Source: Ostreococcus lucimarinus (lineage: Eukaryota). From it: a stretch of DNA of 64,000 nucleotides. How positions within the stretch are numbered: the first letter of the stretch is position 1; every line of letters starts with the position of its first letter. The position numbers and the translations under genes are program-made. Under the pieces are notes generated by a model. It saw only the letters and a program-made list of their open reading frames with translations. It did no database searches and had not been told where the DNA came from. The stretch lies in NCBI GenBank assembly GCA_000092065.1, contig CP000592.1. One strand, written 5' to 3'. Below are positions 13,031-21,252 of the stretch, piece after piece.

Positions 13031-16000
13031 TTACGCGGCCGTGGCGGCGTCCCATTGGATCCAGGCTGGAATACCCTCGTCGTCGTCTTCGTGCTCGTGG
13101 TCGTGGTCGACGTCGTCCTCGGCGAAGGATTCTTCGAGAGCGTCGGCGGAGTACGCGTCCGACTTTGATGCGTGCTTTTTGGACTTGTGAGAGTGTTTCG
13201 AGGAACCGTGCTGAGCGTGCGTCGAAAGGTTTTCGTCACCCTCGTCGTCGTCTTCGTCAAAGTCCGCGGAACTACTGCGATGAGAGCTCTTCTTCTTCGG
13301 CGCGCGCTCAACTGAGTCGTCCCACGGATTCTTATTGTGCTTGGAAGATTCTTTAGGGACAAAACTCTGTGATTCCGCGAGAGCCTCGAAGTCGACGCTT
13401 TCATCATGCTTCTTTCGTCCATGTCCGTGTGCATCGCGCGTGTCCTCGTCGACGTCGTCGTCGTCATCGTCGTACGAGTCGCTCGCCTTGGAGGCGCTCG
13501 AGGAGAAGAGATCGTACGAAATCTTGTGCTTCATATGTTTGGCGTCGTGCATGGAGTACGTCGAGCGGTGGTGATACAAATGATCAGCCGCGTCATCAGC
13601 GTATGTCGGCAACTTGGCGCCAGTGCGAGCAGCGACAGCTTCGCGCGGTTCTTCGTAATATTCTGTCTCGTCCACGTTTTGCTCGTCGTCAATCATGAGC
13701 GAGTTTTGATGAATTTCTGGAGGCTTGAGCGCGTCTAATCCATACGAGGTGCCCCAAAATGAACCATCGTGTCTATCTTTCGCGTACACAATTGGCTTGT
13801 CCGAAGTTGTCGAAGAAGTGACCGGGGCTTGCACAGCCGGAGCAAAGCGAGATGGCACCACTTGGCGCGCCGGCGCAAGCGCTGGACGACTTTGTGACGA
13901 TCCCGACATGGGTACCGGCTGCGCTGGCTGCTGATACGTGGCCGTCTGCTGCGGTTGCTGGTACGTAGTCGGCTGCGCTGGCTGCTGATACGTGGCCGTC
14001 TGCTGCGGTTGCTGGTACGTAGTCGGCTGCGCTGGCTGCTGATACGTGGCCGTCTGCTGCGGTTGCTGGTACGTAGTCGGCTGCGCTGGCTGCTGATACG
14101 TGGCCGTCTGCTGCGGTTGCTGGTACGTAGTCGGCTGCGCAGCAATCGGTTGCTGCCGCACCGTGTGATGTTTCTGCTCGCGGTCAGCTTGCGGTTGTTC
14201 CTTGTGACTGCTGTGTCTCGGCTCGACTTCTTCGAACTCGTCCGAAATGTCGCTCTTGTGATGCTTCTGCTCGCGATTCGGTCCGCCGTTCTGGTTTTCT
14301 TGCGTGAAATCTACGGGCGGTAAACCTCTCGACGCCTTCTCCCAGGGCGCCGCGTGGCCTTCGAATCCCAATGTGCTAGAACTATTGACCTCGGTTGCGT
14401 TCGTCTCAATGCCAGTCAGCGACTGCTGTTCCGCTGCGTTCGGGCTGGTGGTTGGAACTGGGGAAGATGAGGCCGGCGCCACGGGCGTAGGTAACACGTC
14501 CGTTGAAGTAGCTGCCTCAATGCCAGTCAGCGACTGCTGTTCCGCTGCGTTCGGGCTGGTGGTTGGAACTGGGGAAGATGAGGCCGGCGCCACGGGCGTA
14601 GGTAACACGTCCGTTGAAGTAGCTGCCTCAATGCCAGTCAGCGACTGCTGTTCCGCTGCGTTCGGGCTGGTGGTTGGAACTGGGGAAGATGAGGCCGGCG
14701 CCACGGGCGTAGGTAACACGTCCGTTGAAGTAGCTGCCTTCATCGCGTCAGCCAGCGTCATGGGATCTGAGTACTCCTCTGATGCGTCTTCCTGCGATGC
14801 ACCAAGCCTCGCTGCCGTCGGACGTGGCAACGCTTGCGCCTGTTCTGCCGGTGTGGTTCGACCAGCGTTTGTCGTGACGTTACCACCACTCACCTCAGAG
14901 TCGTCGTGAAACGCGCCGAGGGACGCTTGGAAGTGTTCCATGCTCCAGAAATCTTGATGCTTCCCAGCGCGTTGCATTTTCCAACCCCAGAAAAAGTTTG
15001 GCATGTTTGCGACCTCAAAAGCTCGCATTTGACCCCTGTACACAGCATGTTTCACTCTATCTTCGTCGCAGCCCATGGCGCTGTCGTGATGCGTCGCGAG
15101 CGACCACTCGCCCACACTAAATTGGTGCACTCCGATGTCCTCCGCCGTGCGCTTCACCTTCGCGATGTGCCCGGCCATGGCAGATCGAACGGTTTCAGTG
15201 ATGTGTTGCGACGAGTCCGAGCAACTCCAAGCGCACCCAGACTTGCATCCATTCACTCCCCAAGCGAGATAGAAGTGTGTGTCTAATACCGCCCACGTTC
15301 TAAGCTCTTCGCGATCGAACCACTTTCTCATGAGTTTCCCGTACTCTTGTACTGCTAGCCCACTCGTTTCCATCAAATTGACGTACAGCTTTGGCACGCG
15401 CTTGCCCGACATCTCGCGGGGTCGCGCCACGAGCTGACGATACGCAAAGATGGCCTTCTCCATCCATGCCAGCATCGCGTCGCGTTTCGCCGGCATCAAG
15501 TGCGCGGGTTCGTTCAAAAGCGTGAAGCCATCGACAAAATCCTTATCATCCTCAGTGAGGTGGTTGTACCACTTGAACATACTGTGAATCGCGTTCACAC
15601 CCACGTCTTGAAGTTTTGCGTCGTCCCAAAACGCCGGTGGGTGCGGAGACACGCCGTTGTACGTGCCCTCCGAGCTGCCACCGGGCATGTTGTGCATGTC
15701 GACTACCACTCGCGCCCCAGTCTTCTTGTGCAAGATTCGAAGAACGTTCGTCAACGTCATCTGATCGACAGTCACCTGCGCTCGATCGCTATACTTTGGG
15801 TCTTCGACCACTCGCGTCGGGCTTTTCTCCGTGCCCATGAACGCCGCCCAATTCACAGGTAGTCGCAGCGTCTTGTATCCCACTCGCGCGATCTTCTCCA
15901 CGTCCGCGTTCGTCATCCAACTCGATCGATACGCGTTCATAATCTTCACAGTCTTCAAATTCCCATACTTCTTCGCGAGTTTCGCCACCAACTCCCCCTC

Positions 16001-16573
16001 GCTCGACCACGAAAAACCGAGCTCCTCGGCTGAATTGAAAAACGGCGGCAACACCCTTCCCTGCGCGCGCCCGAGCGGCGAATCCACCAACGTGCTCTCA
16101 CCGTTCGCGAAGAACCAATCCTCGAGGTGCAACCATCCGTTCAACGCGACGCCCGCGTTATCCGGAACGCGCGTGAACGCCTCGCGCTCGACCGGCGTCA
16201 ATCCCAGCGCCGCGCTCTCGCGCGCGCGCGCGTCCCCCGTCGCCGTCCCTCGCGCGCGCGCCCCGAGCACCGCCACCATCGCGCCGAGCGCGACGCACGC
16301 CGCGCGTCCGCGTCGCCGCGCATCCCTTCCCGCGCCGTCGCTCGCTCGAGTCGTCTTCCCGCCGCGCGCGTCGTCGCCGGCGTCGCGCGCGCCGTCGTCG
16401 GCGTCGATCTCGCCGCGCGCGCGCTCGACGTCGTACGCGTCGTCGCGCGCGCGCGCGCGGTCGCGCGTCGCGCGGGACGACGACGGACGATCGCCGCCGC
16501 GTCCGAGCAGCGCCGCGCGCTCGCTCATGGCCGCCGTCGCGCGCGGTCGCGGTGTGATGACGCGCCCGCTCAT
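13031..16573 (-). CDS. Glycoside hydrolase family 5 protein (exo-beta-1,3-glucanase/mannanase-like) with an N-terminal signal-anchor and a long repetitive acidic C-terminal region
   Basis: The GH5 catalytic core (GWLHLEDWFFANG...VVDMHNMPGG...LLNEPAH with the NEP acid/base motif...GEWS) follows a hydrophobic segment (RRRGRAACVALGAMVAVLGARARG). The C-terminal half is low complexity: 3 x 37-aa repeats (ATSTDVLPTPVAPASSSPVPTTSPNAAEQQSLTGIEA), 4 x 18-aa repeats (PTTYQQPQQTATYQQPAQ), then an Asp/Glu/His/Lys/Ser-rich tail (DDDDDDVDEDTRDAHGHGRKKHDE..., HDHEHEDDDEG). The first ATG is at 16573. A second ATG at 16528 is also possible. Confidence 0.75.
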   Translation of the reverse strand: MSGRVITPRPRATAAMSERAALLGRGGDRPSSSRATRDRARARDDAYDVERARGEIDADDGARDAGDDARGGKTTRASDGAGRDARRRGRAACVALGAMVAVLGARARGTATGDARARESAALGLTPVEREAFTRVPDNAGVALNGWLHLEDWFFANGESTLVDSPLGRAQGRVLPPFFNSAEELGFSWSSEGELVAKLAKKYGNLKTVKIMNAYRSSWMTNADVEKIARVGYKTLRLPVNWAAFMGTEKSPTRVVEDPKYSDRAQVTVDQMTLTNVLRILHKKTGARVVVDMHNMPGGSSEGTYNGVSPHPPAFWDDAKLQDVGVNAIHSMFKWYNHLTEDDKDFVDGFTLLNEPAHLMPAKRDAMLAWMEKAIFAYRQLVARPREMSGKRVPKLYVNLMETSGLAVQEYGKLMRKWFDREELRTWAVLDTHFYLAWGVNGCKSGCAWSCSDSSQHITETVRSAMAGHIAKVKRTAEDIGVHQFSVGEWSLATHHDSAMGCDEDRVKHAVYRGQMRAFEVANMPNFFWGWKMQRAGKHQDFWSMEHFQASLGAFHDDSEVSGGNVTTNAGRTTPAEQAQALPRPTAARLGASQEDASEEYSDPMTLADAMKAATSTDVLPTPVAPASSSPVPTTSPNAAEQQSLTGIEAATSTDVLPTPVAPASSSPVPTTSPNAAEQQSLTGIEAATSTDVLPTPVAPASSSPVPTTSPNAAEQQSLTGIETNATEVNSSSTLGFEGHAAPWEKASRGLPPVDFTQENQNGGPNREQKHHKSDISDEFEEVEPRHSSHKEQPQADREQKHHTVRQQPIAAQPTTYQQPQQTATYQQPAQPTTYQQPQQTATYQQPAQPTTYQQPQQTATYQQPAQPTTYQQPQQTATYQQPAQPVPMSGSSQSRPALAPARQVVPSRFAPAVQAPVTSSTTSDKPIVYAKDRHDGSFWGTSYGLDALKPPEIHQNSLMIDDEQNVDETEYYEEPREAVAARTGAKLPTYADDAADHLYHHRSTYSMHDAKHMKHKISYDLFSSSASKASDSYDDDDDDVDEDTRDAHGHGRKKHDESVDFEALAESQSFVPKESSKHNKNPWDDSVERAPKKKSSHRSSSADFDEDDDEGDENLSTHAQHGSSKHSHKSKKHASKSDAYSADALEESFAEDDVDHDHEHEDDDEGIPAWIQWDAATAA
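13921..14150. repeat. 54-bp tandem repeat, about 4 copies, inside the GH5 coding region (encodes the 18-aa PTTYQQPQQTATYQQPAQ units)
   Basis: Near-perfect direct repeats of ctgcgctggctgctgatacgtggccgtctgctgcggttgctggtacgtagtcgg on the plus strand. The same periodicity shows up in the spurious overlapping track ORFs 13735-14145(-) and 13955-14323(+). Confidence 0.8.
14407..14740. repeat. 111-bp tandem repeat, 3 copies, inside the GH5 coding region (37-aa units)
   Basis: Three nearly identical copies of caatgccagtcagcgactgctgttccgctgcgttcgggctggtggttggaactggggaagatgaggccggcgccacgggcgtaggtaacacgtccgttgaagtagctgcct. Confidence 0.8.
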
Positions 16574-16743
16574 GAGTTTTGGGTGTTGAACGACAAAAGG
16601 TCCGTGTGGATTCAGCTGATTAAAATTAAAACACACGCGCGGAGCACCGAGGACGCGCGGCGGTGATTGATTATTGGTGATTATCGGTGATCATCGCGCG
16701 ATCGAGGATCGAGCGCGACGGTCGGGGTTGACAAAATTTTCGC

Positions 16744-18366
16744 TCAGACGGCGCCGTAGGCGCCGCGCGCGCCGCGTCGGAGACGCGCGGCCTCGGGCGA
16801 CGCGTGACGGTGTCGCCTGTAAGCGACGAACGCCAAGGCGAGGAAACCGGTGAGAGCGACGGATGGGCCGATGAGCGACGCGTGGGAGTTCGAGGCGGCG
16901 TAGAGGGCTCGGCCCAAGGTTGGAACGCCGACGGGGCCGTCGCCGCCGACGGGGTAACCGCCGCCGGTGGTGCCGTCGCCGCCGACGGGGTAACCGCCGC
17001 CGGTGGCGCCGTCGCCGCCGACGGGGTAACCGCCGCCGGTGGTGCCGTCGCCGCCGACGGGGTGATCGCCGCCGGTGGTGCCGTCGCCGCCGACGGGGTA
17101 ACCGCCGCCGGTGGTGCCGTCGCCGCCGACGGGGTAACCGCCGCCGGTGGTGCCATCGCCGCCGACGGGGTAACCGCCGCCGGTGGTGCCATCGCCGCCG
17201 ATGGGGTGATCGCCGCCGGTGGTGCCGTCGCCGCCGTCGCCGCCGTCGCCGCCATCGCCGCCACCGCCGCCGATGCTGCCGTCGCCGCCTTCGCCGCCTT
17301 CGCCGCCGTCGCCGCCGTCGCCGCCGTCGCCGCCGTCGCCGCCGTCCACGTGAGCCAGGGCGTCTTCGCAGCCGGTGTTGACTTCCGGTAGGTTGGGCTT
17401 CGGATGACAGTGCGGGCCTTCTTCATCGTCGTCATCAGGGTTACCTTCGTCAAACTCACAACCAGCGTTTGCCTCGCATGCACTTTGGTCTTCGTCGCTC
17501 ATCGAACACTCAATGTCGCACAGGTCGATCTGCTTGTTGGTTTCCTTGACGAACGTCTGCAAGTCGCCAAATGTTCTCGGGCACACGTCGAAGCCCATGG
17601 CGTCCGACTCAGGGTGCGGGACGCAAAGTGCTCCGTTCGGGAGCTCTTCGTTCCATTCGCAGGCAATCATGCTAGTGCACGAGTCCGCATCGGTGCCCTC
17701 TCGACAAACCTCCACGCAAGGGTTGGTGGCGTCACCGCCGCCGTCGCCGCCGTCGCCGCCATCGCCGCCGTCGTGGCCGGTGGTGCCGTCACCGTCGCCG
17801 CCTTCGCCGCCTTCGCCGCCTTCGCCGCCTTCGCCGCCTTCGCCGCCTTCGCCGCCTTCGCCGCCGTTGCCGCCACCGCCGCCGTCGCCGCCGTCGCCGC
17901 CGTCCACGCGAGCCAAGGCGTCTTCGCAGCCAGTGTTGACTTCCGGTAGGTTGAACTTCGGACGACAGTGCGGGCCTTCTTCATCGCCGCCTTCAGGGTT
18001 TAGGCCTTCTTCATCGCCGCCTTCATCGCCGCCTTCAGGACCTTTGTCGAACTCACAACCAGCGTTTGCCTCGCACGTACTTTGGTCGTCGATGATCGAA
18101 CACTCGACTTCGCACAGGTTGATCTGCTGAATGTTGTTGGTAGTCTTGACGAACGTCTGTAACTCGCCAAATGTTTTCGGGCACGCGTCGAAGCCCATGG
18201 CGTACGACTCAGGGTGCGGGACGCACGTCGAGTCCGCGTCGCCCCATTCGCAGGCGAGCATGGCGTCGCACGAGTCCGCGTCGGTTTTCGCTTGACAGAA
18301 GCCCTCGCAAGGGTTGTTGGCGTCGCCGCCAGCGGGGTAGCCGCCGTCGCCGCCATTGCCGCCGGT

Positions 18367-18409
<43 letters not shown>

Positions 18410-18534
18410 TTGCCGCCGGTGCCGCCGCCGGTGCCGCCGCCGCCGCCGCCATTGCCGCCGCCGCCATTGCCGCCGGTGCCGCCGCCGGTGCCGCCGCCGC
18501 CGCCGCCATTGCCGCCGGTGCCGCCGCCGCCGGT

Positions 18535-18595
<61 letters not shown>

Positions 18596-18912
18596 TTGCC
18601 GCCGGTGCCGCCGCCGGTGCCGCCGTCGCCGCCGTGACCGCCGCCGGTGCCGCCGTCGCCGCCGTGACCGCCGCCGTGACCGCCGTGACCGCCGCCCTGA
18701 CCGCCGCCGTGACCGCCGTGACCGCCGCCGTGACCGCCGCCGTGACCGCCGTGACCGCCGCCCTGACCGCCGCCGTGACCGCCGTGACCGCCGCCCTGAC
18801 CGCCGACAGCGTGACCGCCGACGTGACCGCCGTCACCCTCGCCGCGCGCCGCGTCGTCCGCGCGATCCGCCTCCTCCGTCGTCGCCGCCGTCACCGCGCC
18901 GCGTCGCGTCAT
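16744..18912 (-). CDS. Gly/His/Asp-rich repeat protein with two duplicated Cys-rich modules and a C-terminal transmembrane anchor (family unknown)
   Basis: The minus-strand ORF carries (GGGHGGHGG)n and poly-Gly tracts, then two about 90-aa modules that conserve all Cys positions (CEGFCQAKTDADSCDAMLACEWGD...CVPHPESYAMGFDACPKTFGELQTFVKT...CEANAGCEFD, and CVEVCREGTDADSCTSMIACEWNE...CVPHPESDAMGFDVCPRTFGDLQTFVKE...CEANAGCEFD). These are separated by (EGG)n/(DGG)n linkers and followed by about 9 GGYPVGGDGTTGG repeats and a TM helix plus basic tail (LTGFLALAFVAYRRHRH...). Conservation between the two modules argues that this strand is coding. The start codon is uncertain: the first internal ATG is at 18912 and the track start at 19095 lies in an AT-rich promoter-like repeat. 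No signal peptide was identified. Confidence 0.4.
16920..17270. repeat. About 36-39 bp tandem repeats (about 9 copies) encoding GGYPVGGDGTTGG-type units
   Basis: ccgccgacggggtaaccgccgccggtggtgccgtcg is repeated with minor variants, and the track ORFs on both strands show the same periodicity. Confidence 0.8.
18330..18830. repeat. Long GGN/CCN triplet-repeat tract (Gly-rich on minus, Pro-rich on plus)
   Basis: (gccgcc)n, (ccgccggtg)n and (gtgaccgcc)n runs. Minus-strand translation gives GGGGG...GGTGGNGGG and (GGHGG)n. Plus-strand translation gives PPPPPP... Confidence 0.8.
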
Positions 18913-19043
18913 CGCGCGTTCGAGCGTTCGAGTACGTTCGCGGTCGCGCGCGCGCGTCGCGGGAGCGCTCGCGTGTGTCGCGCGCGCGTCGTTCGCCGTC
19001 GACGACGCCGATCCATCATCGCTGACGCGGATCGGGGGTGTTG

Positions 19044-19300
19044 CGCAGAGTCGGAATCTTCGATATACCGTAAATATACGCCTTTGTATGTACATTAAAC
19101 ACGTAGAGTAACTCGTAACACCCCATCAATATGCGTGGAGCGAGACGCGCGGCGTGCGACCTCTCTGTGTGTGACGCAGCGTCGGAATCTTCGATATGCC
19201 GTAAATCTACTCTTGTGTATGTACATTAAACACGTATAATCACTAGTAACACTCTATGTGTGGAAACGCGTGCGACCTCTCTGCGTGCCCAGACTGCGCG
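19044..19300. repeat. AT-rich tandem duplication, about 130 bp x 2, in the intergenic/promoter region
   Basis: Copy 1 (about 19044-19175) and copy 2 (about 19176-19300) share gcAGnGTCGGAATCTTCGATATnCCGTAAAT.TAC...TGTATGTACATTAAACACGTA.A.T.ACT.GTAACAC followed by ...GTGCGACCTCTCTG.... Each copy contains the palindromic core ATGTACAT. The GC content is sharply lower than in the flanks. Confidence 0.7.
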
Positions 19301-19524
19301 CCATACGCACGACACGATTCGCCGCGCGCGTCGCGCGGACGCGCGAACGCCAGCGCGACGCGCGGATGCTCGCGCGCGCGATCGCGCGCGTCGAACCGCG
19401 ACCGCGCGGCGACGCGCGCGCGACGCGACGAGCGGCGATTCGACCGAACGCGGCGACGAATCGTTCGATGATCGCGCGCGCGATTCGAAATCGCGCGATT
19501 CGAACGACGCGCGCGCGATTCGCG

Positions 19525-20094
19525 ATGGACGGGACGTCGGCGCGCGCGATGGGGACGTCGGAGACGGTGGCGACGGCGACGCGCGTCGGGAGCGCGCGAG
19601 AGGGGTCGGGAGCGACGGCGGGCGCGCGAGCGACGACGCCGGTGCGAGGCGCGCCGCCGTTGCCGCCGGCGGCGGCGAGAGCGCCGACGCGGGCGCCGAC
19701 GGGAGGCGCGGGGACGACGGGACGCGAGCGCGACGGCGGAGGGAAACCCGCGCTGGGGGGGATCGTGCCGGAGGACATCGACGCGGTGTATCATCAGATG
19801 CAACACTTGGGGAATAAGTGGGCGGACGCGCACGCGGAGGCGGAGATGCTGGAGGAGGCGAAGAAGTGCGTGTTGGCGACGATCACGCTGCATTACATCG
19901 GGGACGGTGGTACGAAGGCGGCGGCGGAGGTGCAGGCGTACGCGTCGCAGGAGTATCAGGATCACATTAAACGCATGGTCGAGGCGCGGAGACGGGCGAA
20001 TTTGGCCAAGATCGAGCTCGAGAGCATCAAGACGCACTTAAACTTGACGAGGACGTACGAGGCGACGCGACGGGAGGAGATGAAGATGCTCTGA
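19525..20094 (+). CDS. Hypothetical coiled-coil protein (family not recognised)
   Basis: The C-terminal 110 aa have normal complexity and a predicted helical/coiled-coil character (IVPEDIDAVYHQMQHLGNKWADAHAEAEMLEEAKKCVLATITLHYIGDGGTKAAAEVQAYASQEYQDHIKRMVEARRRANLAKIELESIKTHLNLTRTYEATRREEMKML*). The upstream part of the track ORF is Arg-rich. The proposed start is ATG at 19525 (MDGTSARAMGTSE...), which is uncertain. Confidence 0.35.
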   Translation: MDGTSARAMGTSETVATATRVGSAREGSGATAGARATTPVRGAPPLPPAAARAPTRAPTGGAGTTGRERDGGGKPALGGIVPEDIDAVYHQMQHLGNKWADAHAEAEMLEEAKKCVLATITLHYIGDGGTKAAAEVQAYASQEYQDHIKRMVEARRRANLAKIELESIKTHLNLTRTYEATRREEMKML

Positions 20095-20187: not shown

Positions 20188-21252
20188 CTAAAGCGCGTCT
20201 AGGCCGAGCTCGGCGCTGTATCCGCCCATCTTCTTCGCGTCGCTCACGAGCTCGACCATGCGCGCGACGCCGCCGCCGATCTGAATCATCGTCGCGCATC
20301 CCTCGGAAAGGCGCAAATGCGTGAATCCTATGATGCGAATCAACTCGAGCTTGATGAACTCTGGCATCGCCGTATCGTCAAAATTTTTACACACTCGGTA
20401 CATGGTGCCGATGATGTCGAACACCGAATACCCTTGGTCGTGCAGCGACTTCAAGCGCGCGTACGCGTCATCGACGTTCCCTTGCAAAATGAACGAAAAC
20501 GCGTCTCGCACGATGTTCGGATGCGGTTGATCGCACACTCGAAACACGTTTTCCTCGTTCACCATCCCGAAACCGAGCGCCGTCGATTGCAAGTTATTCA
20601 ACGCCTGTCTCATGTCCCCATCCGCGGTGAACACGATCGCCTCTAAACCTTTCGGCACGTACGTCACCTTCTCCGCCTCCACCACGGTCATCAACCTCTT
20701 CAAAACCTGTGCGTCCGTCAGTTTCCCGAACCGCACGATCGCGCACCGCGACTGAATCGGTTCGATCACCTTCTCACTCGTGTTACACGCCAACGCAAAC
20801 CGCGTCGTCGCGCTGTAAATCTCCATCGTTCTTCGCATCGCTTGCTGCGCCGCCGTCGTCATGCTATCCGCCTCGTCCAATATCACCAGTTTCGTTCGTC
20901 CCGGCGCGAGCGTCACCTTTTTCTGCGCAAACATTTTAATCTTATTCCTCACCACATCGATCCCTCGCTCGTCGCTCGCGTTCATCTCCAGCACCGCCTC
21001 CTTGTATTTATCTCCCAGCAGCTCTCGCGCCAGCACGCCGATCGCGGACGTCTTCCCGCACCCCGGGGGACCGGAAAAGATCAAGTTTGGCATGAAGCCG
21101 CTCCGCACCATGGTTCGCATGCGATCGACCGCGTCGTCGTTCCCGACGAGATCGTCCAGGGTCTTGGGGCGGTACTTCTCGACCCACGGCATGCCGTCGT
21201 CGCTTTTGGGCTTCTGCGCCGCGCGCAGGGCGGCGAAGGCGTCGGCGACCAT
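20188..21252 (-). CDS. RFC: Replication factor C small subunit (AAA+ clamp loader; RFC2/RFC4-like)
   Basis: [21 protein letters not shown]..., Walker [23 protein letters not shown] (DEAD-like Walker B), SRC motif ([13 protein letters not shown]). 354 aa. ATG at 21252. Confidence 0.9.

What the first reader, a model, noticed from the sequence alone, without database searches (positions are those of the whole stretch)
16744..18912. Gly/His-rich repeat protein with duplicated Cys-rich modules; antisense strand reads as a Pro-rich (extensin-like) ORF
The minus strand encodes (GGGHGGHGG)n, poly-Gly, (EGG)n and (DGG)n linkers, about 9 GGYPVGGDGTTGG repeats, two about 90-aa modules with 10 conserved Cys each, and a C-terminal TM helix. 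The plus strand of the same DNA encodes SPPSPPSPPSPP... and poly-Pro, shown as track ORFs 17513-18130 and 18356-18637. The two Cys modules differ by conservative substitutions while keeping all Cys, which argues that the minus strand is the real gene. His-Gly repeats plus Cys-rich modules suggest a metal-binding or cell-surface/scale-associated protein. The true N-terminus and any signal peptide were not found, and a 5' exon may be missing as in the other genes here.
Basis: seen in the sequence. Interest (0 to 1): 0.6.

Follow-up and report, generated by a model that had tools for sequence, protein, structure and literature searches.

The report
Orphan hypervariable Gly-rich, Cys-module membrane protein
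The minus strand carries a real but unannotated gene, found only in Ostreococcus lucimarinus-type picoalgae, for a membrane-anchored, very acidic, glycine-rich protein with two 12-cysteine modules; its repeat regions differ greatly between wild strains, and the proline-rich "extensin-like" reading on the other strand is a mirror-image artefact.

Summary
Window 16744-18912 (-) is a 722-aa ORF containing:
- His/Gly and poly-Gly tracts
- (DGG)n and (EGG)n linkers
- 8.4 copies of a 12-aa GGDGTTGGGYPV unit
- two modules of 129-140 aa with 12 (not 10) invariant Cys each
- one hydrophobic helix 24 residues from the C-terminus

The minus strand is the coding strand:
- It is the only stop-free frame through both modules.
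- It is the only frame with positive codon-usage score.
- It is open end to end in 9 alleles (the window plus 8 other strains).
- The Pro-rich antisense frame acquires 5-7 stops in 6 of those 9 alleles.

The window is Ostreococcus lucimarinus-like. The gene has no detectable homologue among 1.84 billion representative proteins. It has no Pfam, PDB or fold match. It is absent from the syntenic site in two other Ostreococcus lineages.

Alleles range from 551 to 734 aa. The His-Gly tract is not conserved (0-13 His), which weakens the metal-binding idea. Module piN/piS is about 1, yet every Cys is invariant, and about half of the module polymorphisms are copied from the sister module.

No signal peptide or 5' exon exists, so topology is unresolved. 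I favour a surface-exposed recognition or adhesion protein; a tail-anchored cytosolic protein remains possible.

The parts
16744..18912 (-). Complete CDS, 722 aa plus stop, single exon, start ATG at 18912
   Evidence: This frame is open end to end in 9 alleles. It is the only frame with positive codon-usage score in the modules.
18832..18912 (-). Unique N-terminus MTRRGAVTAATTEEADRADDAARGEGD; no signal-peptide-like hydrophobic core
   Evidence: Conserved in 7 alleles with 1-2 substitutions.
18325..18831 (-). His/Gly repeats, poly-Gly and GGT/GGN low-complexity region (169 aa); hypervariable between strains
   Evidence: The region preceding module 1 (N-terminus plus this tract) is 86-199 aa in other alleles, with 0-13 His.
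17905..18324 (-). Cys module 1 (140 aa, 12 Cys), including an internal acidic EGGD/LNPEGGDEEG insert of variable length
   Evidence: In frame and stop-free in 13 of 13 alleles.
17734..17904 (-). Inter-module linker (DGG)n(EGG)7...; replaced by GYPV-type or other units in other alleles
17347..17733 (-). Cys module 2 (129 aa, 12 Cys), 72% identical to module 1
16936..17346 (-). (DGG)/(EGG) tract followed by 8.4 copies of the 36-nt unit encoding GGDGTTGG[GY/DH]P[VI]
   Evidence: The number of GYPV-type motifs per whole protein is 7-12 in other alleles.
16819..16875 (-). Single predicted transmembrane helix LIGPSVALTGFLALAFVAY
   Evidence: Kyte-Doolittle 19-residue window = 1.9; no other window above 1.6. 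Invariant in 9 alleles.
16744..16818 (-). Basic C-terminal tail RRHRHASPEAARLRRGARGAYGAV (net charge +6) plus stop codon
17513..18130 (+). Antisense Pro-rich (SPP)n ORF: a mirror image of GGC/GAN-GGC codons, not a gene
   Evidence: The homologous frame has 5-7 stops in 6 of 9 alleles. Codon score is negative and there are stops inside both modules.
18356..18637 (+). Antisense poly-Pro ORF: a mirror image of poly-Gly, not a gene
19038..19257 (.). Two copies of an 89-nt direct repeat (19038-19126 and 19169-19257, 84% identical) in the divergent promoter / 5' UTR region. It covers the 'MYIQRR' start of the long ORF, which is therefore not coding.
   Evidence: (family D7)

Best explanation
Window 16744-18912 (-) is a genuine single-exon protein-coding gene of an Ostreococcus lucimarinus-type genome. 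It is a lineage-restricted orphan.

Shown:
- The product is a 722-aa, strongly acidic protein (net charge about -90) with a single predicted C-terminal membrane helix.
- The helix and the basic tail after it are nearly invariant between strains.
- Most of the chain is Gly-rich low complexity. Its codon-phased tandem repeats expand, contract and are swapped between strains.
- Two paralogous modules of about 130 aa keep 12 invariant Cys each, while the other residues change at about the neutral rate.
- The two modules exchange sequence with each other by gene conversion.

Inferred:
- The Cys pattern is C-x3-C-x8-C-x5-C-E-[WF], present twice per module. There is an even number of Cys per module, and no CxxC or CxC motifs. 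I infer that the modules are small disulfide-stabilised knobs.
- The Gly/Asp/Glu/Thr tracts would act as flexible, cation-binding, possibly glycosylated spacers that hold the knobs away from the membrane of a wall-less cell.
- The likeliest role is therefore a cell-surface (glycocalyx) recognition or adhesion protein. Its variability would come from repeat slippage, unequal recombination and inter-module conversion.

The Pro-rich plus-strand ORFs are antisense artefacts.

Sub-confidences:
- Real minus-strand gene: about 0.9.
- Orphan and hypervariable: about 0.9.
- C-terminally membrane-anchored: about 0.75.
- Extracytoplasmic disulfide modules with a surface recognition role: about 0.45.
For: Coding strand:
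- The sense frame has 0 stops in both modules. The other five frames have 1-9 stops.
- Codon log-odds, trained on six Pfam-supported neighbouring genes, are +0.21 and +0.18 per codon in the sense frame. All other frames score -0.20 to -0.74.
- The sense frame is open end to end in the window, L001, L002, L007, L011-L014 and L021, despite completely different repeat content.
- The Pro-rich antisense frame is broken by 5-7 stops in L002, L011-L014 and L021.

Constraint:
- All 12 Cys columns are invariant among three diverged module copies (P = 5.5e-4).
- All 24 Cys are invariant in 13 (module 1) and 10 (module 2) alleles.
- The C-terminal 60 codons are nearly invariant (piN 0.0035, piS 0).

Organism: the RFC neighbour is 100% identical to O. 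lucimarinus CCE9901 XP_001420841.1 over 334 aa.

Orphan status:
- A profile search of 1.84e9 representative proteins found only 2, both alleles of this same gene.
- Word-indexed searches found 0 and 2 clusters, none with an NCBI, UniProt or MMETSP source.
- The JGI metagenome scan gave 5 loci, all the same gene. The viral scan gave none.
- In two other Ostreococcus lineages (RFC 84% identical), the orthologous flanking genes lie 297 and 418 bp apart with nothing in between.

Hypervariability:
- Alleles are 551-734 aa. Linkers differ in unit type.
- Module piN is 0.019-0.026, against 0.0011 in the neighbouring gene. Module piS is 0.019-0.020, against 0.0065.
- At 13 of 27 polymorphic sites in module 2 and 7 of 18 in module 1, the minor allele is the sister module's state.
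Against: - No signal peptide is present and there is no room for an upstream exon. This conflicts with an extracellular 680-aa N-terminal domain.
- No expression evidence of any kind is available. The protein is absent from all annotated or transcriptome-derived protein sets searched.
- piN/piS is about 1.0-1.3 within modules and dN/dS is 0.8-1.1 between module copies. These values are also what a neutrally drifting sequence would show.
- Five of 14 assemblies (L003-L006, L009) have frame breaks, two of them inside module 2 (L004, L009). L001 has a compensated frame excursion. Assembly errors and real pseudogenisation cannot be told apart here.
- AlphaFold gave no confident fold (pLDDT 56 and 51), so the disulfide-knob idea rests on the Cys pattern alone.
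Confidence: 0.5

Rival explanations
1. Tail-anchored protein with a cytosolic N-terminal domain. With no signal peptide and a single moderately hydrophobic helix ending 24 residues before the C-terminus, the protein would be inserted post-translationally. The strongly basic C-terminal segment would fit an organelle outer membrane or the ER. The acidic, Cys- and (in some alleles) His-rich domain would face the cytosol and act as a metal or cation buffer or a scaffold.
For: - There is no N-terminal hydrophobic segment in any frame upstream.
- The TM helix spans residues 741-759 of the 783-aa ORF. It has a Kyte-Doolittle score of 1.9 and is followed by 24 residues of net charge +6.
- These are the sequence criteria usually used to define tail-anchored proteins (my own knowledge).
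- Cys, His, Asp and Glu are all metal ligands.
Against: - The His tracts are not conserved between alleles (0-13 His).
- The Cys spacing lacks the CxxC, CxC and CC motifs typical of metal clusters.
- There are 12 invariant Cys per module, an even number, in a C-x3-C...C-x5-C pattern. That looks like a disulfide scaffold.
- Extreme allelic variability is unusual for a cytosolic housekeeping metal buffer.
Confidence: 0.25
2. A young ORF or proto-gene that is evolving essentially neutrally, or is decaying in part of the population. On this view, GC-rich triplet repeats keep long frames open for free, and the protein has no established function.
For: - piN/piS is 1.0-1.3 and dN/dS is 0.8-1.1.
- The gene is absent from sister lineages.
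- It is absent from annotated and transcriptome protein sets.
- Frame breaks occur in 5 of 14 assemblies, including inside module 2.
- GGC-type repeats cannot generate stop codons in any frame.
Against: - The non-repetitive modules (about 270 codons, about 58% GC) are stop-free only in the sense frame.
- Codon usage matches genuine genes in that frame only.
- All 24 Cys are invariant (P = 5.5e-4 for one three-way comparison). This holds even in the haplotype with 18% nucleotide divergence.
- The anchor and tail are conserved.
- Frame breaks are confined to the chromosome-scale JGI assemblies and two ENA contigs (sequencing platforms not checked). The five JGI metagenome contigs (L010-L014) are all open across the part of the gene they hold.
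Confidence: 0.15
3. The plus strand encodes a hydroxyproline-rich (extensin- or pherophorin-like) glycoprotein, and the Gly-rich reading is the artefact.
For: Plus-strand ORFs of 205 aa with (SPP)n and 93 aa with poly-Pro exist in the window. HRGPs are common in green algae (my own knowledge).
Against: - Every antisense frame has 1-6 stops inside each module.
- Antisense codon scores are -0.20 to -0.74.
- The Pro-rich frame carries 5-7 stops in 6 of 9 alleles. There, GGTTACCCC (G-Y-P) reads as TAA on the other strand.
- No antisense frame is open across the gene in any allele.
Confidence: 0.02

Closest known systems
Diatom frustulins (cell-wall glycoproteins with acidic cysteine-rich, ACR, domains joined by polyglycine or proline-rich linkers)
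   Same: The architecture is similar: several acidic Cys-rich modules separated by polyglycine or low-complexity linkers. The linkers are dispensable or variable between family members, and a cation (Ca2+) binding role is proposed (PMC4712521).
   Different: - The target has no ER presequence and no Trp-rich domain.
- The ACR hexapeptides CQGDCD/CEGDCD and VPGCSG are absent. Only a partial CEGFCQ is present.
- The profile search found no homology to any protein outside this locus.
- The target has a C-terminal TM anchor.
- The host is a wall-less green alga, not a diatom.
Fungal cell-surface adhesins with intragenic, codon-phased tandem repeats (FLO/ALS type; recalled from my own knowledge, not tested)
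   Same: Both have in-frame tandem repeats whose copy number changes rapidly between strains. The repeats alter the length of a stalk that presents a binding domain at the cell surface.
   Different: - There is no sequence or domain relationship.
- The fungal proteins have signal peptides and GPI anchors and are Ser/Thr-rich rather than Gly/Asp-rich.
- Surface location of the Ostreococcus protein has not been shown.
Plant glycine-rich proteins and Gly/His-rich peptides such as shepherins (recalled from my own knowledge, not tested)
   Same: (GGX)n and GGH-type repeats. Some classes combine Gly repeats with a Cys-rich region.
   Different: - Those proteins are secreted through a signal peptide and are short.
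- The His-Gly tract here is not conserved between alleles.
- Similarity is compositional only.
Green-algal HRGPs, extensins and pherophorins
   Same: (SPP)n and poly-Pro tracts appear if the plus strand is translated.
   Different: The plus-strand frames are interrupted in the modules and in most alleles. The resemblance is the complement of Gly/Asp/Glu codons.

Membership tests
Frustulins (diatom ACR-domain proteins) | ER signal presequence | tested here: not met
   No N-terminal hydrophobic segment and none in any upstream frame. The criterion is taken from PMC4712521.
Frustulins (diatom ACR-domain proteins) | ACR domains carrying the hexapeptides CQGDCD/CEGDCD and VPGCSG | tested here: not met
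   Neither hexapeptide occurs in the translated protein. The nearest is CEGFCQ in module 1 and CVEVCR in module 2.
Frustulins (diatom ACR-domain proteins) | Polyglycine or proline-rich linkers between Cys-rich domains | tested here: met
   A poly-Gly/GGN region lies before module 1, and Gly-rich (DGG)/(EGG) linkers lie between and after the modules.
Frustulins (diatom ACR-domain proteins) | Tryptophan-rich C-terminal domain, and detectable sequence homology | tested here: not met
   The protein has only 2 Trp. The profile search of 1.84e9 proteins returned only this locus.
HRGP / extensin-like (plus strand) | An open reading frame with Ser-(Pro)n repeats that is maintained as a gene | tested here: not met
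   The ORFs exist in the window. However, the frame has 5-7 stops in 6 of 9 alleles, stops inside both modules and negative codon scores.
Tail-anchored membrane proteins | No N-terminal signal sequence; a single TM helix within about 30-40 residues of the C-terminus | tested here: met
   The only hydrophobic window is at residues 741-759 of the 783-aa ORF, with 24 residues after it. The definition is from my own knowledge.
Tail-anchored membrane proteins | Post-translational insertion with the N-terminal domain in the cytosol | not testable with these tools
   This needs topology experiments. The invariant even-numbered Cys pattern argues for an oxidising compartment, but that is an inference.
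Metal-binding Cys/His-rich proteins (metallothionein-like, His-rich) | Conserved CxC/CxxC/CC clusters or conserved His repeats | tested here: not met
   Cys spacing is C-x3-C-x8-C-x5-C-x8/11-C-x13-C-x20/22-C-x3-C-x8/9-C-x5-C-x16/29-C-x12-C. The His count of the N-terminal tract varies from 0 to 13 between alleles.
Any curated protein family (Pfam) or solved structure | Significant profile or fold match | tested here: not met
   - Pfam: 0 families at E <= 10 for the modules and flanks.
- PDB sequence profile: 0 hits at E <= 10.
- Foldseek against PDB: best E = 5.4, on a low-confidence model.

The most novel reading that the evidence does not exclude
The gene encodes a species-specific, hypervariable surface determinant of O. 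lucimarinus. Two disulfide knobs on Gly-rich stalks would be the point of contact for a strain-specific biotic interaction such as prasinovirus adsorption (as receptor or decoy), grazer recognition or gamete recognition. Old, highly diverged haplotypes would be kept by balancing or diversifying selection: module 2 of L009 has dS 0.19, while the flanks are 98.9% identical. Inter-module gene conversion and repeat slippage would act as a built-in diversity generator. The 2017 review names no prasinovirus receptor on Ostreococcus; host glycoconjugates are only suspected (PMC5371798).
Probability: 0.15. Interest if true: 0.7.

Novelty: new variant of a known kind. Interest (0 to 1): 0.45.

Why it matters
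If the protein is made and exposed at the surface, it would matter in four ways.
- It would be a rare example of a lineage-restricted, rapidly diversifying surface protein in the smallest free-living eukaryote. Ostreococcus has no wall or scales, and its virus susceptibility is strain-specific with no known receptor.
- It is a concrete candidate locus for allele-versus-virus-host-range association tests.
- It shows that reference annotations of GC-rich picoalgal genomes miss real genes built from triplet repeats.
- It is a clean case for checking the strand of Gly-rich versus Pro-rich mirror ORFs with population data.

If the protein is not expressed, it remains a useful example of how GC-rich repeats and internal duplication build a long ORF de novo.

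Tried and rejected
1. Homology. The following all gave nothing beyond alleles of the same locus:
- Pfam on the whole protein and on four pieces.
- A PDB sequence profile.
- Word-indexed searches of 5.8e9 clusters.
- A full HMMER profile search of 1.84e9 representatives.
- A viral contig scan.
- A tblastn search of the window for paralogues.

2. Structure. Two AlphaFold runs, on module 1 and on the 10-Cys core, each with a 2-sequence alignment, gave pLDDT 56 and 51. Foldseek against PDB gave no hit better than E = 5. I draw no structural conclusion from these.

3. Reference annotation. Exact look-ups of the ORF, of the alternative start and of nine overlapping ORFs on both strands were not in the collection. 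The CCE9901 RFC model could not be located on a contig. How, or whether, the reference annotates this locus therefore remains unknown.

4. dN/dS as strand evidence. It does not discriminate between frames (0.72-1.11 in all six), so I rejected it as an argument. Stops, codon usage, Cys invariance and ORF conservation across the population were used instead.

5. Balancing selection as the sole cause of high module diversity. This was weakened because about half of the polymorphisms are paralogue-derived.

6. A 5' exon or signal peptide. All three upstream frames were read down to the neighbouring gene and none is hydrophobic.

7. Literature searches for an Ostreococcus Gly/Cys-rich membrane protein or for orphan genes found nothing relevant.
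Full report
**1. The observation**

Window 16744-19095 (-) is a 783-aa ORF, the longest of about ten overlapping ORFs in this 70-76% GC stretch. Reading from the ATG at 18912 gives 722 aa. In order, the protein contains:
- a unique 27-aa N-terminus;
- 169 aa of His/Gly repeats, a G20 run and GGT/GGN repeats;
- module 1 (140 aa);
- a (DGG)n(EGG)7 linker;
- module 2 (129 aa);
- more DGG/EGG;
- 8.4 copies of a 36-nt unit encoding GGDGTTGG[GY/DH]P[VI] (TRF);
- a 20-aa juxtamembrane piece;
- the only hydrophobic helix of the protein (LIGPSVALTGFLALAFVAY, Kyte-Doolittle 1.9);
- a 24-aa tail of net charge +6.

Each module has 12 Cys, not 10, and the modules are 72% identical. Within a module, the motif C-x3-C-x8-C-x5-C-E-[W/F] occurs twice (CEGFCQAKTDADSCDAMLACEW and CEVECSIIDDQSTCEANAGCEF). 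This suggests stepwise internal duplication; I read it directly.

**2. Which strand codes**

dN/dS between the two modules does not discriminate between frames. It is 0.82 in the sense frame and 0.72-1.11 in the others, and differences fall evenly on codon positions (17/21/20). Four other tests do discriminate.

- Stops. The sense frame has no stop in either module. The other five frames have 1-9.
- Codon usage. I trained a codon log-odds score on six Pfam-supported genes of the same species. It is +0.21 and +0.18 per codon in the sense frame and -0.20 to -0.74 in every other frame. A held-out neighbouring gene scores +0.32 in its true frame.
- Cys invariance. I compared module 1, module 2 and a strongly diverged module 2 from another strain (L009). 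Of 124 ungapped columns, 69 are invariant, and all 12 Cys columns are among them (P = 5.5e-4).
- Population data. I obtained 14 further copies of the locus from public assemblies (L001-L007, L009-L014, L021).
  - The sense frame is open from the same ATG, or from the contig edge, to the same stop in the window and 8 of these copies. This holds although their repeat regions differ completely.
  - No antisense frame is open across the gene in any allele.
  - The Pro-rich antisense frame that gives ORF 17513-18130 is interrupted by 5-7 stops in six alleles. In five of them (L002, L011-L014) the inter-module linker is of the GYPV type, where GGTTACCCC reads as TAA on the other strand; L021 has a different linker.

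The plus-strand 'extensin-like' reading is therefore an artefact of complementing GGC/GAC/GAA-GGC codons.

**3. Start codon and signal peptide**

The ATG at 18912 and the MTRRGAVTAATTEE... N-terminus are conserved. An independent gene caller used this start (P0137). Several facts argue against any coding sequence further upstream.
- The reading frame upstream of the ATG differs between strains.
- The upstream region contains two copies of an 89-nt direct repeat (19038-19126 and 19169-19257).
- The divergently transcribed neighbour starts at 19285.
- None of the three frames in this 190-370 bp space encodes a hydrophobic segment.

So there is no missing 5' exon and no recognisable signal peptide.

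**4. Organism and distribution**

The adjacent RFC2/4 gene (20188-21252 -) is 100% identical over 334 aa to O. lucimarinus CCE9901 XP_001420841.1. It sits on contigs of about 540 kb in several assemblies.

The module has no detectable relatives.
- The module profile found only two proteins among 1.84e9 representatives. One (P0017) was traced to this same locus, and the other (P0016) is near-identical to other alleles of it.
- Word-indexed searches found 0 and 2 clusters, all from metagenomes and none with an NCBI, UniProt, EukProt or MMETSP source.
- JGI metagenome contigs gave five loci, all the same gene.
- Viral contigs gave none.

In two other Ostreococcus lineages (RFC 84% identical), synteny is conserved: zf-MIZ, NUDIX, RFC, the ~200-aa gene, the GH5-like gene, URO-D, L13 and Sec23. 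There the ~200-aa gene and the GH5-like gene are separated by only 297 and 418 bp, and tblastn finds no trace of the target. In L015 the flanking genes are true orthologues, at 72% and 64% identity. The gene is therefore a lineage-restricted orphan, either inserted or born between two conserved genes, or lost twice.

**5. Variation between strains**

Complete alleles encode 551-734 aa. All of the low-complexity parts vary.
- The N-terminal region before module 1 is 86-199 aa. Its His count is 13, 7, 1, 0, 3 and 10 in the window, L002, L007, L011, L012 and L021.
- The inter-module linker takes three forms: (EGG)n, GYPV-type units, or a novel GIMAASW[WR]HHGGDGGYPAGG unit.
- GYPV-type motifs number 7-12 per protein.

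Within the modules, most variable codons change the amino acid, and diversity is far higher than in the neighbouring gene:

| Region | Variable codons that are nonsynonymous | piN | piS | piN/piS |
|---|---|---|---|---|
| Module 1 | 11 of 14 | 0.019 | 0.019 | 1.0 |
| Module 2 | 17 of 20 | 0.026 | 0.020 | 1.3 |
| Neighbouring GH5-like gene | not counted | 0.0011 | 0.0065 | 0.17 |

About half of the polymorphic sites carry the sister module's state as the minor allele (13 of 27 in module 2; 7 of 18 in module 1). That is far more than random mutation would give, so ectopic gene conversion between the two modules feeds the diversity.

One contig, L009, has flanks 98.9% identical to the window but a module 2 that is 18% diverged. 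For that copy dS is 0.19 and dN/dS is 1.1, and all 12 Cys are retained when it is read in the window's frame.

By contrast, the last 60 codons (juxtamembrane, TM and tail) are nearly invariant.

**6. Caveats on integrity**

L003-L006 and L009 show frame breaks. Most lie inside low-complexity DNA, but L004 has one and L009 has three inside module 2. L001 reads about 85 aa of the Gly region in the Arg frame and then returns. The broken copies come from three JGI assemblies with 400-540 kb contigs (L003, L005, L006) and from two ENA contigs (L004, L009). The five JGI metagenome contigs (L010-L014) are all open across the part of the gene they hold. Consensus errors in GC-rich repeats are a plausible cause, but real pseudogenised alleles cannot be excluded.

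**7. What it most likely is and does**

Shown:
- It is a real coding gene on the minus strand, an orphan, with a conserved C-terminal anchor.
- It has an invariant Cys scaffold, fast-changing non-Cys residues and highly mutable codon-phased repeats.

Inferred:
- The modules are disulfide-stabilised knobs. They have 12 Cys each, C-x3-C and C-x5-C spacing, and no CxxC or CxC.
- The Gly/Asp/Glu/Thr tracts are flexible acidic spacers.
- Together these suggest a surface or glycocalyx recognition or adhesion protein of a wall-less cell.

The main obstacle is the lack of a signal peptide. By sequence criteria the protein qualifies as tail-anchored, which would place the Cys modules in the cytosol. 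That is the main rival (0.25). A neutrally drifting proto-gene is a further rival (0.15). The plus-strand HRGP reading is essentially excluded (0.02). The His-Gly metal-binding idea is weakened by the non-conservation of His.

**8. Comparison with known proteins**

The closest architecture is that of diatom frustulins: acidic Cys-rich domains joined by polyglycine or proline-rich linkers (PMC4712521). The defining hexapeptides, the presequence, the Trp-rich domain and any sequence homology are all absent, so the target is not a member. Functionally it resembles surface adhesins whose in-frame repeats vary between strains; that comparison is from my own knowledge. No Pfam, PDB or fold match exists, and AlphaFold models were of low confidence.

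**9. Verdict**

The strand call is right. The metal, scale and missing-exon suggestions are not supported. The finding is a previously undescribed, lineage-specific, hypervariable modular membrane protein. It is of moderate interest now, and would be of higher interest if it proves to be a surface determinant in virus-host or mating interactions.

Noticed in passing
window 19038-19126 and 19169-19257: An 89-nt direct repeat (84% identical, 131 bp apart) lies in the divergent intergenic region between the target gene and the 269-aa gene at 19285-20094 (+). Both copies contain TTTAATGTACATAC. It may be a duplicated promoter element linked to the origin of the gene.
   Followed up: partly
window 13031-16636 (-): The downstream neighbour is a 1201-aa ORF. 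It has an internal N-terminal hydrophobic anchor (AACVALGAMVAVLGA) and a GH5/cellulase-like core (weak Pfam Cellulase hit on the L015 orthologue). It carries its own tandem repeats: a 34-aa unit x3 and TYQQPQQTA-type units. Its called length varies from 1039 to 1197 aa between strains.
   Followed up: partly
L009:1400-1860 (ENA ERZ10646601 contig_3007): This is a haplotype whose module 2 is 18% diverged at the nucleotide level (dS 0.19), while 8 kb of flank is 98.9% identical to the window. It also carries three 1-nt indels. It could be an ancient balanced allele, an introgression, a pseudogene or a mis-assembly; this is unresolved.
   Followed up: partly
L001:12338-12900, plus L003-L006: The JGI assemblies with 400-543 kb contigs read part of the Gly region in the Arg or Ala frame (in L001 the excursion is compensated) or break the frame. 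GGC repeats tolerate frameshifts without creating stops, so such errors, or real shifts, stay hidden in ORF scans.
   Followed up: partly
L021:6001-7677 (P0137): This allele has a novel inter-module linker unit, GIMAASW[WR]HHGGDGGYPAGG x2. It is not seen in any other allele, so the linkers are replaced and not merely resized.
   Followed up: no
protein P0023: A protein labelled Malus baccata (hypothetical protein C1H46_001847) is among the closest RFC hits (E = 2e-174; 65% identity over 79% of the query in the best local alignment). It ranks above the labelled green-algal and land-plant RFCs.
   Followed up: no
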